A stretch of 64,000 nucleotides of DNA from the human T2T-CHM13v2.0 reference genome, Homo sapiens, in the NCBI RefSeq assembly GCF_009914755.1, contig NC_060925.1; one strand, 5' to 3'. Made by a program: the position numbers and the translations under genes. The notes beneath the pieces were generated by a model, which worked only from the letters and a program-made list of their open reading frames with translations, was not told the origin of the DNA and ran no database searches. Shown one piece after another: positions 19,752 to 26,488 of this stretch. The number at the start of each line of letters is the position of its first letter. The first letter of the stretch is position 1.

Positions 19752-19964
19752 CGAGGAGGTGCTTGATGATTGCTTGGTTGTGTTCCCAGAGGTTGCTGAA
19801 GGTCCCCCAGCGTGAGTGGCCATCAGGGACTGGGTTGGCCTTGATCCAGCCCCCACAGGCGTAGCTGAAGAAGTCATGGCAGGGGTCCACTGTGGGGTCC
19901 ATGGAGCTCAAGATGGAGCTGGTCACTGAGACACAAGCTTCGCTCAGGCACACAGAGGGGGATC
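19752..19964 (-). CDS. ECE1: ECE1 exon 4 (213 nt; [70 protein letters not shown])
   Basis: Acceptor ttccag|GA, donor G|GTAAGC, phase 1/1; contains the M13-family DPC.DF..YACGGW motif. Confidence 0.97.
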
Positions 19965-20344
19965 CTGGAAGGGTTAAGGACAAGAGGCCAGTGAAGGGCA
20001 GGCAGGGAAGAAGCAGGGAGGGCAGAGAAGGGGGCTTGGGGCCCAGGGGCCACATGTCCCACCCTGGCCCTGACCACACAGATTTGGAACTGGACGGTCA
20101 CTAGACCCCTACAGAGAAATGATTTCCGCTTATAACACAAGACTTCTACTCAGCTGTCTAAAATCCTTCCTGTGGCTAAAAGGTACCCAGAACCCAGGTG
20201 TTTCTCTTAATCAACCTTCTCCTCCATAAATATTCATTGACTCTTTATTATTCCTTGATGCTCAACAAATTTATTCATTCACGCATGCATTCATTTATTC
20301 AGCAAGATAATGACTACCTTCCAGGTTCTCTGCTGAGTATGGAG

Positions 20345-20436
20345 TGCGTGTGTGTGCATGTGTGCACCTGCGTGAAAGTGTGTGCCCGTGCGTGTGTGCG
20401 TGTGTGTGTGTGTGTGTGTGTGTGTGTGTGTGTGTG
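20345..20436 (+). repeat. (TG)n microsatellite with degenerate TG/CG lead-in
   Basis: Pure TG run about 20401-20436. Confidence 0.95.
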
Positions 20437-20736
20437 TAGGGTACTGGGGTATTGGGCATAAAAAGGCAGAGTCCTTTAATCCAAGAGCTAACAATTCAGT
20501 TGGGGATATACACATAAATCAAAATGGAACAGTAGGAGAAATGTCTGTCCTCCTTTCTACAAAAATAAACTGAACATTTACTATGTGCCAAAAGGGTGAT
20601 GTAGACAGTATGGATGACAGGACATAGGAAGGAGGAAAGCCTATTAGAAATAGAAGGAGGAAATAGGAAAAATCACTCCTACGTACAAGCAGGAGAGTGA
20701 GTGACCTCAGGGAATCCTCAAAAACCCAAAGGCTAC

Positions 20737-22367: not shown

Positions 22368-24070
22368 GGCCGGGCTCGGTGGCTCATGCCTGTAATCCCA
22401 GCACTCTGGGAGGCCGAGGTGGGCGGATCACCTGAGGTCAGGAGTTCGAGACCAGCCTGGCCAACATGGTGAAACTCTGTCTCTACTAAAAATACAAAAA
22501 TTAGCCAGGTATGATGGGGGGCACCTGTAATCCCAGCTACTTGGGAGGCTGAGGCAGGAGAATCTTTTGAACCCGGGAGGCGGAGATTGCAGTGAGCCAA
22601 GATCGCGCCACTGCATTCCAGCCTGGGCGACAAGAGTGAGACTCTGTCTCAAATAAATAAATAAAGCAGTCTCAGAAATTTGAGTTCTTCACTAAGTGCC
22701 TACTTTGCTGGACATTGGGCTAGGGACCTACGAGGTGCTTAAGGAGCAATGGCTTGATTATTTAACTATTTAATGGTTTGCAGAAACTTCATGAAATATT
22801 CCTGGCCCAGGAAGTGCTTCATGCATTTTGATGACCTCATGGTTTCCAGGCCCCCTCATCTAAGGCCCCCTCTTCCTACGGAAACCTTCATCGACCCCCT
22901 TCCCTCTCTGGGCCCCTCAGCGGCCTGGGTGCCTGCTCTGCTACTGTGCTATGTCACGACCATCTCCTTGTTCATTTCTCCTACTAGAATGTGAACTTCA
23001 GGGCAGGCCAATATCCTATGCGTTTTTATATTTCCATTGTCTAGTACTGTGTTTGGCAACTAGCAGCTGTTTAATACGTGCTTTTTTTTTTTTTTTTTTT
23101 TTTTGAGACAGAGTTTTTGCTCTGTCACCCAGTGCAGTGGCATAATCTCGACTCGCTGCAACCTCTGCCTCCTGGATTCAAGCAATTCTCCTGCCTCAGC
23201 CTCCTGAGTAGCTAGGATTACAGGCATCCAACACCACGCCTGGCTAATTTTTGTATTTTTAGTAGACACGAGGTTTCACCATGTTGGCCAGGCTGGTCTT
23301 GAACTCTTGACCTCAGGTGATCCACCCGCCTCGGCCTCCCAAAGGGCTAGGATTATAGGCGTGAGCCACTGCGCCCGGCCTCAATACGTGTTTTTGAATG
23401 AACAACCGAATGAATGAAAGGCCTTATTCAGCACTTGTTCACCACCTGCAGAGGCAGCAAACATTTCTTTCCGTTGGGACATGCGTGATCAATTGAGAAA
23501 GCAGAAACAGATCCTAGATTTAATTTACAGACACTCATCTGGACAGCCTGGCCTCAAAACTGTGTAGAATGCTTTCTTTAAAATATGTTCTTGGAGAATG
23601 TATTGTTTGTTTTGCTGCCTCTGTTTGCAAAGCACCAGCATGTTTCTGGAAAGGAAGCATAGCAGGAAGGTAAGTAAACACGTACTATGTGTCCAGACAT
23701 TCCCAGAGGCTGGCCTTCAGAATCATCAGATTTGCTTTCTTTTTTTTTTTTTTTTTTGAGACGGAGTCTCGCTCTGTCGCCCAGGCTGGAGTGCAGTGGT
23801 GCCATCTTGGCTCACTGCAACCTCTGCCTCCCAGGTTCAAGTGATTCTCCTGCCTCAACCTCTCGAGTAGCCGGTGTGCACCATCACAGCCACCTGAGTA
23901 GCTGGGACTACAGTTGTGCGCCACCATCCCTGGCTAATTTTTGTATTTTTAGTAGAGACGGGGTTTCACCATGTTGGTCAGGCTGGTCTCGAACATCTTG
24001 ACCTCAGGTGATCTGTCCATCTCGGCCTCCCAAAGTGCTGGGATTACAGGCGTAAGCTACTGCGCCCGGC
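22368..24070. mobile_element. Three Alus in intron 3: + 22368-22665, - 23082-23380, - 23735-24070
   Basis: Recognisable Alu bodies, tails and TSDs (AATACGTG; CAGATTTGCTTT). Confidence 0.9.
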
Positions 24071-26244
24071 CAGATTTGCTTTGACTGGCCTGATGTTTGC
24101 TCAGATGTGGCCAGCACCAGCACCTGCTCCTGGGTAATGAGGTTACTGTTAATATCTGGGGTGGTCACTGCTTTCCCAGGTGGCTCAGGGGTCACCTGAT
24201 ACTCTGCCCAGCTCCACTCCAGGGGAAGAATGTTCCTCTCCCAGGTCCAGGCTGGAGAAAACCCTTCTGAGACCCAGAGAGGGACACAACAGAGGCAGAA
24301 GCAGGATTCCTCCCAAGGGGCCCCACTGGGCAATAACAACAGAAATGTTTTGGGTCTGATCATCAGGAGCTGGCCCGTGGGGACTCCCCCCTGGTTTCTG
24401 GTGAAGACATATCTTTGGAGCTCCGAGGGGCAGTCTCAGGGTAACACTGGCTGCCGGAGTCTGGCCAGCTCCCGCTGCTCTGAGCCAAGAGCTGTGCAGA
24501 CGTGCTGGCCAGGGTCCACACTGACCAGGAGGGGGTTCAGAACTAGAGCTGATTTAGGCTGAGGCGACATGGCAGTGGCAGGAGAGGATGACGAGCTTGT
24601 GTCCTGTTAGCAGAGGAGGCACAAACACACACACACACACACCAGGACACGATCACACAATATACATACACTCAGCAGAGAAAGGCTGTTCCCAGCCTGA
24701 TCTTCCTTCCTACCCCTTCGTTCATTCAAACATTAATTTATTCATTTTACTATCTGCACACCTATGGCACAGGCACTATGCTAAGCACATCTGGTTAAGG
24801 GCCTGAAAACTAGTCATTAATTAGTCAAATATGCATTAAGCACCTGCTGAGCCAGGCACATTTGGTAAAACACCTACAAACCATTATAGTTAACTAATCA
24901 AGCAATTATTTCTTAAGTACAACCTATCTTTGTGGAATGAATGAATACCTGTGTGCCTTACCCAGGAGGGATGGAAGAATGCTCAGATGAAGGCCCTGCT
25001 CTTTTCTAGGCCCCTGAGTCCCCTCCCCACCCCAGCGCAGCGTGGCCACCCTCACAGACCAGCAACTTCACAGAGGGAAGGCTCCACACAGCCTGTAGTG
25101 GATGTTCCAAGATCCTGTGAAAGCTCCTAATCTCTCTCATGGGGTGAGCGACCGAGTCAGTGGGTGGGATGCTGAGCAGAGCCCCCAGAGGCTGCTCAAC
25201 TAGGTGAACCATCTGCCATCAGAAGAATAGATGTTGGGGCACAGGGGACTGAGAGGCCCTGGCTTTGGCTAATTCCCCATTCTTATTTCTAACTTGGATC
25301 CACCCCTTCGCACTTCTTAAGTGTTTACTGAGCATCAACTCTGTGTGAGGCAGCTGGCTAGATCCACTTAGTTGGAAACAGAGAACCAGTCTCAGACCCC
25401 TACAGCAGGATCAGAGTGGCCCAATTGTATCACCATTCAAAGTGGGACAAAGGCACCGATCAAGGAACACGATGGGCAGCTGGATCTGGAAGGGCAGCTC
25501 TCCTGGGGGTGTAATGCGCTCTGGAGCGTACTTGGATTACAAAGGGAGGTGGAGCCTGGGCTTGAGCCCAGTAGCCTGTGGGTGAATTCCAACTTCCGCA
25601 TTGGATTAGCAAGTCACTCTATCTCAGTGCCTCAGTTTCCTAATATGGAAAAGGGGCCAAAAGTAACCACACTTCACAGGGCTGCCTCCAGGAGGAAATG
25701 AGATTGCATCTGAAGCGAGGGGTGTGGTATTTGGGTATTTGGTCCGAGGAAATAATTCAGTAAACAGAGGGCATTATTGTTATTTTATTGGAACTAGAGA
25801 TAGCAGACAATGTCAGCCTATGTGTGTAATTACCCCACATTCTAGCAACAACAGTACCCAGAGCTAAAGTTGAAGAAGTCCTACGAGGCACCAGCTATGG
25901 GACATATGTTATCTCTAGTCCGCAGACCCATCCCCCAGTTGGGTACTGTTTTCCCATTTAAATTAGAGAAGACACAGGCTGAGGGAATAAGTGACTTGTC
26001 CGAGGTCACACAGCCAGTAAGTTGCTGGGACAGGATGTGGACTCAAGTGCGAGACCTTTATATCACCCACGCTGCCCACTTCCCGGGTCTTGGTCTATCT
26101 CAGCACCCAGACCCCCCTGGGCCTGGCTCCCTCCTTAGCCTCAGAGCCCTGCCCCGGCTTAAGCAGGGAAGCCCCCCTCGCCCGAGCTGACGGAGCCGGG
26201 TGCAGGAGTGAGTCAAGCCCACCATGCAACACGAAGGCACCTAC

Positions 26245-26488
26245 TTGTCTGGTACTGGATGCCCAGTGCTGCCAAGCAGGCCACCAGTCCTGCCGCCAGA
26301 AGTACCACCAACACCACCAGCCGCTTCTCCACCTGGGTCCGTGCAGCCCAGCACCTCTGGCCACTCCGGGGGCTGTGGAAGTTCACCTGCAGGGAAGGAG
26401 GCAGGAGGGGCGGGGAAGACGTGAGCCCCGGGCCCCGCTTCCCTTGGAGGAAGGGGTTCCGCTGCAGGCCCAGGCCCTGGAGAGGCAT
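26245..26488 (-). CDS. ECE1: ECE-1a start ([34 protein letters not shown], 26488-26387) contiguous with common exon 3 (26386-26245, 142 nt) encoding the signal-anchor TM helix [21 protein letters not shown]
   Basis: ATG at 26488; internal acceptor ccctgcag|GTGAAC at 26386; donor ACAA|GTAGGT at 26244; hydrophobic 21-residue helix. Confidence 0.96.

What the first reader, a model, noticed from the sequence alone, without database searches (positions are those of the whole stretch)
19752..26386. Exon 3+4 circle (355 nt) encodes a two-lap 237-aa membrane-anchored ORF whose start overlaps its own stop
Seen: back-splicing exon 4 donor (19752) to exon 3 acceptor (26386) gives 142+213=355 nt (3n+1). 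An ATG at 19877 in context tGCCATGA opens a stop-free +1 frame for 42 codons ([42 protein letters not shown]), crosses the junction exactly into the native frame (118 aa: VNFHSP...TM helix...YACGGW...IKHLL), crosses again into the third frame ([77 protein letters not shown]) and ends at TGA 19876-19874, in the same ATGA tetranucleotide (714 nt = 2x355+4). The native Met at 19902 gives a 127-aa TM-less sub-ORF. Knowledge: ECE1 isoforms differ only in the cytosolic tail joined to exon 3, and I recall a reported circECE1 (hsa_circ_0002402) of this exon pair, studied as non-coding. Inference: the circle could supply a fifth, Ser/Thr-rich tail on a catalytically dead type II membrane mini-ECE1.
Basis: partly seen in the sequence, partly recalled or inferred. 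Interest (0 to 1): 0.8.

Follow-up and report, generated by a model that had tools for sequence, protein, structure and literature searches.

The report
Chance wrap-around ORF in ECE1 circles
Joining ECE1 exons 3 and 4 into a circle does give the long wrap-around reading frame described, but such frames arise easily by chance in circles of coding exons, the well-studied circECE1 is a different circle (exons 2-4), and nothing yet shows that either circle is translated.

Summary
The arithmetic is right. Exon 3 (142 nt) plus exon 4 (213 nt) makes a 355-nt circle. ATG 19877 opens a 237-aa ORF of 42+118+77 residues that ends at TGA 19876-19874 inside the same ATGA.

The recalled identity is wrong. 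hsa_circ_0002402/circECE1 is exons 2-4, 442 nt. Published primers and the siRNA target map to the exon 4|exon 2 junction. The exon 3+4 circle exists but is minor: 42 versus 2,903 junction reads in ENCODE, and 14 versus 165 in HEK293.

The same ATGA two-lap ORF persists in the 442-nt circle, at 295 aa. An in-frame ATG at the first base of exon 2 gives 253 aa.

The ORF is not beyond chance. With the native frame kept open, ORFs of at least two laps arise in 2-17% of controls. Off-frame stops are not depleted. The ECE2 paralogue lacks the ORF. The start/stop overlap follows from ATGA plus a length of 3n+1.

No ECE1 junction peptide appears in one published circRNA mass-spectrometry table. Overlapping start/stop and multi-round ORFs are a known kind.

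Verdict: most likely an incidental by-product of circularising coding exons. Low interest.

The parts
19752..19964 (-). ECE1 exon 4 (213 nt). Its donor at 19752 is the back-splice donor of all the circles discussed.
   Evidence: Searches show AG/GT flanks. The native frame hits Peptidase_M13_N with E=9.2e-16, profile positions 1-44 of 381. The hg19 row of span 213 (exon 4 alone) has 301 junction reads.
26245..26386 (-). ECE1 exon 3 (142 nt).
   Evidence: The hg19 row 21599191-21605825 has 42 junction reads (ENCODE) and 14 (HEK293 DHX9 set).
37123..37209 (-). ECE1 exon 2 (87 nt). Its acceptor at 37209 is the acceptor of the published circECE1 (hsa_circ_0002402, 442 nt). Its first three bases are an in-frame ATG.
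   Evidence: exons 2-4, 442 nt. (reverse divergent primer at 37129-37146). (siRNA target equals the exon 4 end|exon 2 start). The hg19 row of span 17458 has 2,903 and 165 junction reads.
19874..19877 (-). ATGA tetranucleotide. ATG 19877-19875 starts the two-lap ORF (237 aa in the 355-nt circle, 295 aa in the 442-nt circle). TGA 19876-19874 ends every ATG-ORF of both circles.
   Evidence: The ATG is formed by the native codons CAT-GAC.
19900..19902 (-). Native-frame Met codon. It gives a 127-aa ORF (355-nt circle) or a 156-aa ORF (442-nt circle) without a membrane helix.
19821..19823 (-). Second ATG of the +1 frame, in frame with ATG 19877. It gives 219 aa or 277 aa.
37207..37209 (-). ATG at the first base of exon 2, placed directly after the back-splice junction of the 442-nt circle. 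It gives a 253-aa ORF of 147 native residues plus a 106-aa frameshift tail.
   Evidence: Junction context (T at -3, T at +4).
26249..26338 (-). Coding stretch of the hydrophobic signal-anchor segment (residues 59-88 of the 237-aa ORF).
   Evidence: all Kyte-Doolittle 19-residue windows of 1.6 or more fall here, with a maximum of 3.09. Coordinates are derived from the codon positions.
19349..19648 (.). Interspersed repeat of about 300 nt, lying 104-122 nt downstream of the exon 4 donor. It is a candidate pairing arm for back-splicing.
   Evidence: No tool named the repeat family.
27957..28237 (.). Inverted copy of that repeat, 1,571 nt upstream of the exon 3 acceptor (86.5% identity over 282 nt).
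38611..38889 (.). Inverted copy of that repeat, 1,402 nt upstream of the exon 2 acceptor (84.9% identity over 279 nt).

Best explanation
The two-lap ORF is an incidental, arithmetical by-product of circularising internal coding exons whose summed length is 3n+1. It is not a selected or expressed coding unit.

How the circles form. Back-splicing from the exon 4 donor is probably helped by a repeat of about 300 nt that lies about 100 nt downstream and has inverted copies 1.4-1.6 kb upstream of exons 2 and 3. This yields mainly the exon 2-4 circle (circECE1, 442 nt). An exon 4-only circle and the exon 3+4 circle (355 nt) are rarer.

Why the ORF appears. The native frame is open by construction, so any reading crosses a whole lap. 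After each lap the frame shifts by one. An AUGA start in a 3n+1 circle meets its own UGA in frame after exactly 2L+1 nt. The ORF reaches that point only because the four stops of one off-frame happen to lie upstream of the AUG and the two stops of the other off-frame lie at or after it.

What is shown and what is inferred. Shown: the sequence facts, the existence and relative abundance of the circles, and the chance rates. Inferred: that the repeats drive back-splicing, and that the circles are not productively translated. If a ribosome did translate either circle, I infer that the product would be unstable. It would be a type II anchored ECE1 stub with a Gly/Pro-rich frameshift tail.
For: (1) Chance. 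With the ECE1 peptide kept, ORFs of at least two laps arise in 868 of 5000 (355 nt) and 834 of 5000 (442 nt) synonymous-codon permutations. They arise in 258 and 189 of 5000 codon-order shuffles and in 219 and 100 of 5000 random draws of ECE1 codons.

(2) Off-frame stops are not depleted. Six are observed, and the permutation P(total <= 6) is 0.86 (355 nt) and 0.65 (442 nt).

(3) Among 28 contiguous exon circles that can be drawn from exons 2-8, 3 of the 12 with a length not divisible by 3 have ORFs of at least two laps. These three share sequence. 13 of the 16 with a length divisible by 3 have endless ORFs. All 5 ECE1 5'-region circles listed in the ENCODE table are of these two kinds.

(4) The off-frame peptides have no Pfam family (0 of 3 segments). 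They are low in complexity: 45% Ser+Thr in the head and 36% Gly+Pro in the tails.

(5) The paralogous ECE2 exon pair (136+216 = 352 nt, also 3n+1) has one ATG and a 60-nt ORF.

(6) No ECE1 entry appears in the back-splice-junction peptide table of PMC9242994, which has a gene-name column. That paper reports 990 junctions from 646 genes. None appears in the 7 supplementary files of PMC10943130.

(7) The two primary circECE1 papers explain its effects through RNA: c-Myc binding and miR-588 sponging (abstracts and passages). The first has 0 occurrences of 'ribosom', 'peptide' or 'protein-coding'.

(8) PMC6487579 finds no Ribo-seq or mass-spectrometry support for circRNA translation in general (abstract and passages). 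It labels these ECE1 circles 'Other circRNA'.

(9) The circles are 61-62% G+C. Only 1 hexamer position out of 355, or out of 442, has five or more A/T. The IRES-like elements tested in PMC9242994 are A/U-rich (primer table).
Against: circECE1 is reported as at least partly cytoplasmic, so ribosomes could reach it.

ATG 19877 has G at -3. All four ATGs of the 442-nt circle feed one reading path and one stop, so any initiation would give the same C-terminal tail.

There are 10 DRACH matches in the 355-nt circle and 12 in the 442-nt circle. I did not compare these with shuffles.

Dinucleotide shuffles rarely give such ORFs: 24 and 4 of 5000.

Several circRNAs with the same ORF layout are reported as translated.

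The mutant circle used by Shen et al. alters sites within positions 100-130 and 301-442. By my numbering from exon 2, the second range includes the ATGA, so their wild-type versus mutant contrast does not exclude a protein effect.

Absence from mass-spectrometry tables is weak evidence for a low-abundance membrane protein.

The decisive orthologue comparison could not be run.
Confidence: 0.8

Rival explanations
1. circECE1 (mainly the exon 2-4 circle, marginally the exon 3+4 circle) is translated at a low level by cap-independent initiation at one of its AUGs. The product is a short-lived type II membrane stub with a frameshift tail. It is cleared by quality control and has no function of its own. 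This is translational noise.
For: The circle is located in the cytoplasm. All AUGs lead to one stop. PMC9242994 reports that 67% of circRNAs carry host-overlapping ORFs, that hundreds give junction peptides, and that circRNA-specific C-terminal tails destabilise the products through the proteasome. The luminal part holds 44 of 381 positions of the N-terminal M13 domain, followed by a tail with 36% Gly+Pro and 3 extra Cys. I infer that it would misfold.
Against: No ECE1 junction peptide appears in that paper's table. The circle lacks A/U-rich hexamers. PMC6487579 argues that junction reads in Ribo-seq do not come from translating ribosomes. The listing abstract of PMC7544230 says overexpression constructs give translation from linear transcripts.
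Confidence: 0.13
2. One reading: the circle-encoded protein is a functional, membrane-anchored, catalytically dead mini-ECE1. Its new cytosolic head and/or new luminal tail act on ECE1 trafficking or on other partners, by analogy with the 14-aa tail of C-E-Cad.
For: The signal anchor is intact and the cytosolic side is basic, so a type II topology is plausible (sequence). In the 442-nt circle the 253-aa ORF starts at the first codon of exon 2, so it carries the whole exon 2-encoded cytosolic stretch that the exon 1 and extended-exon 2 transcripts share. There are precedents for functional frameshift tails. The published phenotypes were not tested for dependence on translation.
Against: There is no sign of selection: stops are not depleted, the ORF is within chance and it is absent in ECE2. 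The off-frame segments have no family and are low in complexity. The exon 3+4 circle is rare, at 42 versus 2,903 and 14 versus 165 junction reads. No peptide evidence was found.
Confidence: 0.05

Closest known systems
circECE1 / hsa_circ_0002402 (PMC7586679; PMC10410784)
   Same: It uses the same back-splice donor (exon 4, 19752) and contains both exons of the finding. It has the same ATGA start/stop and the same two-lap logic, with an ORF of 888 nt = 2x442+4.
   Different: It includes exon 2 (442 nt, acceptor 37209). It is described only as a c-Myc-binding RNA and a miR-588 sponge. It is 12-69 times more abundant than the exon 3+4 circle in the two tables seen.
circ-SHPRH (SHPRH-146aa), circ-AKT3 and circPPP1R12A: overlapping start-stop codons (reviews PMC8442428 and PMC8740365, passages)
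   Same: The start and stop codons overlap in one short motif created or used by the circular topology.
   Different: The motif there is UGAUGA/UAAUGA. The ORFs are reported as translated, with experimental support according to the reviews. Here the motif is AUGA, the ORF runs two laps rather than about one (the lap count for those cases rests on my recall of their lengths), and there is no expression evidence.
circE-Cad (C-E-Cad, 254 aa from 733 nt): 'multiple-round ORF' with a frameshift tail (PMC8740365, passages)
   Same: The circle length is not divisible by 3. The native frame is read first, then a shifted frame in the next round gives a unique C-terminal tail on a membrane-associated fragment of the host protein.
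   Different: The C-E-Cad tail is 14 aa and is reported to bind EGFR. The ECE1 tails are 77 or 106 aa with no tested function. The ECE1 ORF also begins in an off-frame.
Rolling-circle (endless) ORFs of circRNAs (PMC9242994)
   Same: These are also ORFs that exceed one lap of a coding-exon circle. ECE1 circles whose length is divisible by 3 (exon 4 alone, exons 3-5) are of this kind in silico.
   Different: The 355-nt and 442-nt circles have a stop, so the ORF is finite and changes frame on every lap.
ECE-1 N-terminal isoforms from alternative first exons
   Same: Like them, the circle ORF would put a different cytosolic head on the same signal anchor (one search shows three such heads encoded in the window).
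   Different: The natural isoforms carry the full catalytic ectodomain. The circle ORF stops after residue 64 of the solved 670-residue ectodomain chain. The isoform letters a-d are from my recall, not from a call.

Membership tests
Exonic circRNA made by back-splicing | Canonical splice sites at the joined exon ends | tested here: met
   AG precedes 26386 and 37209, and GT follows 19752 on the transcribed strand.
Exonic circRNA made by back-splicing | Back-splice junction reads in RNA-seq | tested here: met
   PMC6487579 Tables S2 and S4 give 42 and 14 reads for exon 3+4, and 2,903 and 165 for exons 2-4. The hg19 spans match the window spans to within 1 nt.
Exonic circRNA made by back-splicing | RNase R resistance and amplification by divergent primers | not testable with these tools
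   Reported for the exon 2-4 circle. I saw no such test for the exon 3+4 circle.
Exonic circRNA made by back-splicing | Flanking inverted repeats (common, not obligatory) | tested here: met
   The repeat at 19349-19648 has inverted copies at 27957-28237 and 38611-38889.
Translated circRNA with overlapping start/stop or multi-round ORF | An ATG-ORF that crosses the back-splice junction | tested here: met
   In silico only.
Translated circRNA with overlapping start/stop or multi-round ORF | Start and stop share nucleotides | tested here: met
   ATGA at 19877-19874. This follows from ATGA plus a length of 3n+1.
Translated circRNA with overlapping start/stop or multi-round ORF | A cap-independent initiation element (IRES or m6A) | tested here: inconclusive
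   Proxies only. There are 10 and 12 DRACH matches (no shuffle control), and 1 A/T-rich hexamer position of 355 or of 442. I did not find the list of 97 IRES-like hexamers (one search was the primer table).
Translated circRNA with overlapping start/stop or multi-round ORF | Ribosome association | not testable with these tools
   No Ribo-seq or polysome data could be read here.
Translated circRNA with overlapping start/stop or multi-round ORF | A circle-specific peptide detected | tested here: not met
   'ECE1' occurs 0 times in the 4 readable supplementary files of PMC9242994, which include the junction-peptide table. It occurs 0 times in the 7 files of PMC10943130. This is a weak negative.
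Peptidase M13 (ECE-1) enzyme | Full M13 N-terminal and catalytic domains | tested here: not met
   Only profile positions 1-44 of 381 of Peptidase_M13_N are present, equal to residues 1-64 of the 670-residue chain 3dwb_A. The circle contains no exon beyond exon 4.
Peptidase M13 (ECE-1) enzyme | N-terminal signal-anchor helix (type II) | tested here: met
   A single hydrophobic segment with a KD19 maximum of 3.09. The topology itself is inferred.
AUG circRNA (PMC6487579 class) | The circle contains the host gene's annotated start-codon exon | tested here: not met
   All ECE1 rows seen are labelled 'Other circRNA'. The annotated start of NM_001397.3 lies in exon 1 (hub table).

The most novel reading that the evidence does not exclude
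The abundant, validated circECE1 (exons 2-4) is a coding circle. Back-splicing places the ATG that opens exon 2 directly behind the junction. All four AUGs of the circle converge on the single UGA of the AUGA motif. Any initiation therefore yields a type II membrane-anchored ECE1 N-terminal fragment with one shared 106-aa frameshift tail. Under this reading, part of the osteosarcoma phenotype now ascribed to the RNA (c-Myc binding, miR-588 sponging) would be due to this protein. The exon 3+4 circle would give a minor variant with the same final 77 residues.
Probability: 0.05. Interest if true: 0.5.

Novelty: new member of a known kind. Interest (0 to 1): 0.2.

Why it matters
If the ORF were translated, it would add a membrane-anchored, enzymatically dead ECE1 fragment to the list of circRNA-encoded proteins. 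It would also call for re-reading the published circECE1 phenotypes, which were never tested for dependence on translation.

As things stand, the case is mainly a caution. Circles built from internal coding exons carry wrap-around or endless ORFs almost as a rule, as do 5 of 5 ECE1 5'-region circles recorded in ENCODE. A start/stop overlap at ATGA is forced by a length of 3n+1. Such ORFs alone are therefore not evidence of coding.

The correction that hsa_circ_0002402 is the exon 2-4 circle matters for anyone designing junction primers, siRNAs or peptide searches.

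Tried and rejected
- Orthologue test of the off-frames: not possible. Only the window's own human assembly is held and no other vertebrate genome is available. 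I used the ECE2 paralogue as a weak stand-in. Its exon borders are inferred from homology, phase and AG/GT sites, not from annotation.
- Genome-wide empirical null over all annotated exon circles: not possible without annotation outside the window. I used four kinds of shuffles and the window's own exons instead.
- List of 97 IRES-like hexamers: supplementary file 1 of PMC9242994 turned out to be the primer table, so I used only an A/T-richness proxy.
- Other names for ECE1 circles: 0 papers. One search gave no papers beyond the 106 that already hold 'circECE1'.
- Papers holding 'circECE1', 'translat' and 'ORF': 10 papers. I opened only PMC8442428, which lists circECE1 as a c-Myc binder. The other 9 I know only from the listing.
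- PMC11429730 and PMC11244134 mention ECE1 only in a reference or as a host gene, so they are not relevant.
They may hold a score for this circle.
- Folding the joined ORF or searching it against protein databases: left out, because a joined sequence is not a stretch of the window. I submitted only the single-exon segments, by reference.
- I rejected the idea that the off-frames are kept open by selection.
- I rejected the dinucleotide shuffle as the relevant null, because it destroys the native frame that is open for an unrelated reason.

Full report
**Observation**

On the minus strand, exon 3 (26245-26386) is 142 nt and exon 4 (19752-19964) is 213 nt. Both have AG/GT flanks. Joined head to tail they make 355 nt, which is 3n+1.

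The circle holds three ATGs, and all three ORFs end at TGA 19876-19874:

| ATG | Context | ORF length |
|---|---|---|
| 19877 | CCTGCCATGA | 237 aa |
| 19823 | - | 219 aa |
| 19902 | - | 127 aa |

The 237-aa ORF is 714 nt, which is 2x355+4. It reads 42 codons of the +1 frame, 118 of the native frame and 77 of the third frame. The native frame has no stop. One off-frame has four stops (circle positions 1, 160, 181, 196) and the other has two (230, 281).

**Which circle is the published one**

That is not so.
- PMC7586679 and PMC10410784 both describe circECE1/hsa_circ_0002402 as exons 2, 3 and 4, 442 nt (passages). In the window, 87+142+213 = 442.
- The divergent primers of PMC10410784 map to exon 4 (19774-19793, sense) and exon 2 (37129-37146, antisense).
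- Their siRNA target is exactly the end of exon 4 joined to the start of exon 2.
- A third paper, PMC10933408, uses the same primer pair.

**Does the exon 3+4 circle exist?**

It does, as a minor species. The supplementary tables of PMC6487579 give hg19 coordinates and a 'total_junction' column. Table S2 is the ENCODE set, which the text says comprises 378 human samples. Table S4 is the HEK293 DHX9 set. The ECE1 rows that share the exon 4 donor or the exon 2 or exon 3 acceptor are:

| Circle | hg19 span | Window span | Table S2 reads | Table S4 reads |
|---|---|---|---|---|
| exons 2-4 | 17,458 | 17,458 | 2,903 | 165 |
| exon 4 alone | 213 | 213 | 301 | not seen |
| exons 3-4 | 6,634 | 6,635 | 42 | 14 |
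| exons 3-5 | 19,062 | 19,062 | 11 | not seen |
| exons 2-3 | 10,966 | 10,965 | 7 | not seen |

- The two 1-nt differences are opposite in sign and cancel over exons 2-4. I take them to be small intron length differences between the assemblies.
- Table S2 was cut when stored. I saw only some of its 23 ECE1 rows.
- All rows seen are labelled 'Other circRNA'.

**The ORF in the real circle**

Exon 2 is 87 nt, a multiple of 3, and it is open in the two frames that matter. The 442-nt circle is therefore again 3n+1, and ATG 19877 again runs two laps to its own TGA. The ORF is 295 aa, or 888 nt = 2x442+4.

The circle has four ATGs, and all four end at that one stop: 19877 (295 aa), 19823 (277 aa), 37209 (253 aa) and 19902 (156 aa).

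ATG 37209 is the first base of exon 2, so back-splicing puts it directly behind the junction. It is in the native frame and would give 147 native residues plus a 106-aa frameshift tail. Its context is weak, with T at -3 and T at +4.

**Is it more than chance?**

The overlap of start and stop needs no special explanation. For a length of 3n+1, 2L+1 is divisible by 3. A ribosome that starts at the A of AUGA is therefore in frame with the UGA one base further on after exactly two laps. That is arithmetic. What remains is that no other stop intervenes.

| Control | 355-nt circle | 442-nt circle |
|---|---|---|
| Dinucleotide shuffles (native frame not kept open) | 24 of 5000 | 4 of 5000 |
| Synonymous-codon permutation (ECE1 peptide kept) | 868 of 5000 | 834 of 5000 |
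| Codon-order shuffles | 258 of 5000 | 189 of 5000 |
| Random draws of ECE1 codons | 219 of 5000 | 100 of 5000 |

Each figure is the number of controls with an ATG-ORF of at least two laps. The dinucleotide shuffles destroy the native frame, which is open simply because these are ECE1 coding exons, so they are not the relevant null. The coding-aware nulls give 2-17%.

Further points against selection:
- Off-frame stops are not depleted. Six are observed, with permutation P(<=6) of 0.86 and 0.65.
- I drew 28 contiguous circles from exons 2-8. Of the 12 with a length not divisible by 3, 3 reach two laps, and those three overlap one another. Of the 16 with a length divisible by 3, 13 have endless ORFs.
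- All 5 ECE1 circles in the table above fall into these two classes.
- The paralogous ECE2 exon pair has 136+216 = 352 nt, also 3n+1, with borders inferred from homology, phase and AG/GT sites. It has one ATG and a 60-nt ORF. This is a weak test, because it says nothing about a mammal-specific function.

**What the product would be**

- The only hydrophobic segment is the native signal anchor, residues 59-88 of the 237-aa ORF. It is preceded by basic residues, so a type II topology is plausible. That is an inference.
- The luminal native part matches only positions 1-44 of the 381-position Peptidase_M13_N profile (E=9.2e-16). This equals residues 1-64 of the 670-residue solved ECE-1 chain 3dwb_A. 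The product would have no catalytic domain.
- The three off-frame segments have no Pfam family. The head is 45% Ser+Thr and the tails are 36% Gly+Pro with 3 Cys.
- PMC9242994 reports that circRNA-specific C-terminal tails destabilise such products through the proteasome (passages). I infer the same fate here.

**Isoform statement**

The window shows three natural N-terminal tails. One is encoded in an extension of exon 3 (26387-26669). One is in an extension of exon 2. One is in exon 1. Only the first joins at exon 3, and the other two join at exon 2. The isoform letters are from my recall.

**How the circles probably arise**

A repeat of about 300 nt at 19349-19648 lies 104-122 nt downstream of the exon 4 donor. 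It has inverted copies in three places:
- 1,571 nt upstream of exon 3 (27957-28237);
- 1,402 nt upstream of exon 2 (38611-38889);
- inside intron 3 (22368-22657).

No tool named the repeat family. [quoted passage not shown] The claim that pairing drives these back-splices is an inference.

**Evidence on translation**

I found none for it.
- The primary paper has 0 occurrences of 'ribosom', 'peptide' or 'protein-coding'.
- The review PMC8442428 lists circECE1 among protein-binding circRNAs.
- 'ECE1' is absent from the 4 readable supplementary files of PMC9242994, which include the junction-peptide table with a gene-name column. It is also absent from the 7 files of PMC10943130.
- PMC6487579 finds no Ribo-seq or mass-spectrometry support for circRNA translation at large (abstract and passages).
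- The circles are 61-62% G+C with 1 A/T-rich hexamer position. The IRES-like elements tested in PMC9242994 are A/U-rich.

Some points keep translation possible:
- circECE1 is reported in the cytoplasm as well as the nucleus.
- ATG 19877 has G at -3.
- There are 10 and 12 DRACH matches in the two circles (no shuffle control).
- The mutant circle of PMC7586679 changes sites within positions 100-130 and 301-442. If numbering starts at exon 2, the second range contains the ATGA, so that experiment cannot separate RNA effects from protein effects.

**Comparison with what is known**

Overlapping start/stop codons (UGAUGA/UAAUGA in circ-SHPRH, circ-AKT3 and circPPP1R12A) are established descriptions. 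So is a 'multiple-round ORF' with a frameshift tail (circE-Cad, 733 nt, 254 aa, 14-aa tail) (passages). Endless rolling-circle ORFs are described as well.

The ECE1 ORF is the same kind of object in silico, with two differences. It starts in an off-frame, and it passes through all three frames over two full laps. It meets the in-silico criteria for that family but none of the expression criteria.

**Verdict**

- The circle's identity is corrected: the published circle is exons 2-4, and the exon 3+4 circle is real but rare.
- The ORF is most likely (0.8) an incidental consequence of circularising coding exons with a length of 3n+1.
- Novelty: at most a new, unproven member of a known kind.
- Interest is low (0.2).
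- The decisive tests are orthologue comparison, frame-resolved Ribo-seq, targeted mass spectrometry and ATG-mutant circles. None could be run here.

Noticed in passing
window 19752-19964 (exon 4 alone): An exon 4-only circle (hg19 span 213) has 301 junction reads in the ENCODE table, seven times the exon 3+4 circle. At 213 nt, a multiple of 3, it has an endless ORF in silico. An inverted copy of the exon 4-proximal repeat lies inside intron 3 (22368-22657) and could favour this circle.
   Followed up: partly
window 7325-26386 and 26245-37209: Two further rare ECE1 circles appear in the ENCODE table: exons 3-5 (11 reads; 477 nt, endless ORF in silico) and exons 2-3 (7 reads; 229 nt, ORF of 549 nt = 2.4 laps).
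   Followed up: partly
window introns 19965-26244 and 26387-37122: The hg19 spans differ from the window by -1 nt across intron 3 and +1 nt across intron 2, and the differences cancel over exons 2-4. I take these to be small length differences between the assemblies. I did not locate them.
   Followed up: no
L002 1134-1269 and 1493-1708 (G000 contig C3; ECE2 paralogue by my reading): The paralogous exon pair keeps the same phases and length class (136+216 = 352 nt, 3n+1), with only a 223-nt intron between the two exons. It contains a single ATG and no long circle ORF.
   Followed up: partly
window 26387-26669, 37210-37268, 37417-37467: The three alternative 5' coding starts are readable in frame. 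One tail is encoded in the extended exon 3, one in the extended exon 2 and a 17-aa one in exon 1. Only the first joins at exon 3.
   Followed up: yes
literature, PMC10933408 supplementary file 3: In assays with herpesviral host-shutoff nucleases, circECE1 (same exon 4/exon 2 primers) stays at 0.63-1.27 of control while linear ECE1 mRNA falls to 0.26-0.69.
   Followed up: no
literature, PMC7586679 (positions 301-442 of the 442-nt circle; window about 19752-19893 if numbered from exon 2): The c-Myc-binding mutant of circECE1 alters predicted sites in a range that would include the ATGA start/stop and two of the four ATGs. The exact changes are in a supplementary figure that I could not see.
   Followed up: no
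outside the window (hg19 chr1 21563238-21564737): Another ECE1 circle from downstream exons has 359 junction reads in the ENCODE table.
   Followed up: no
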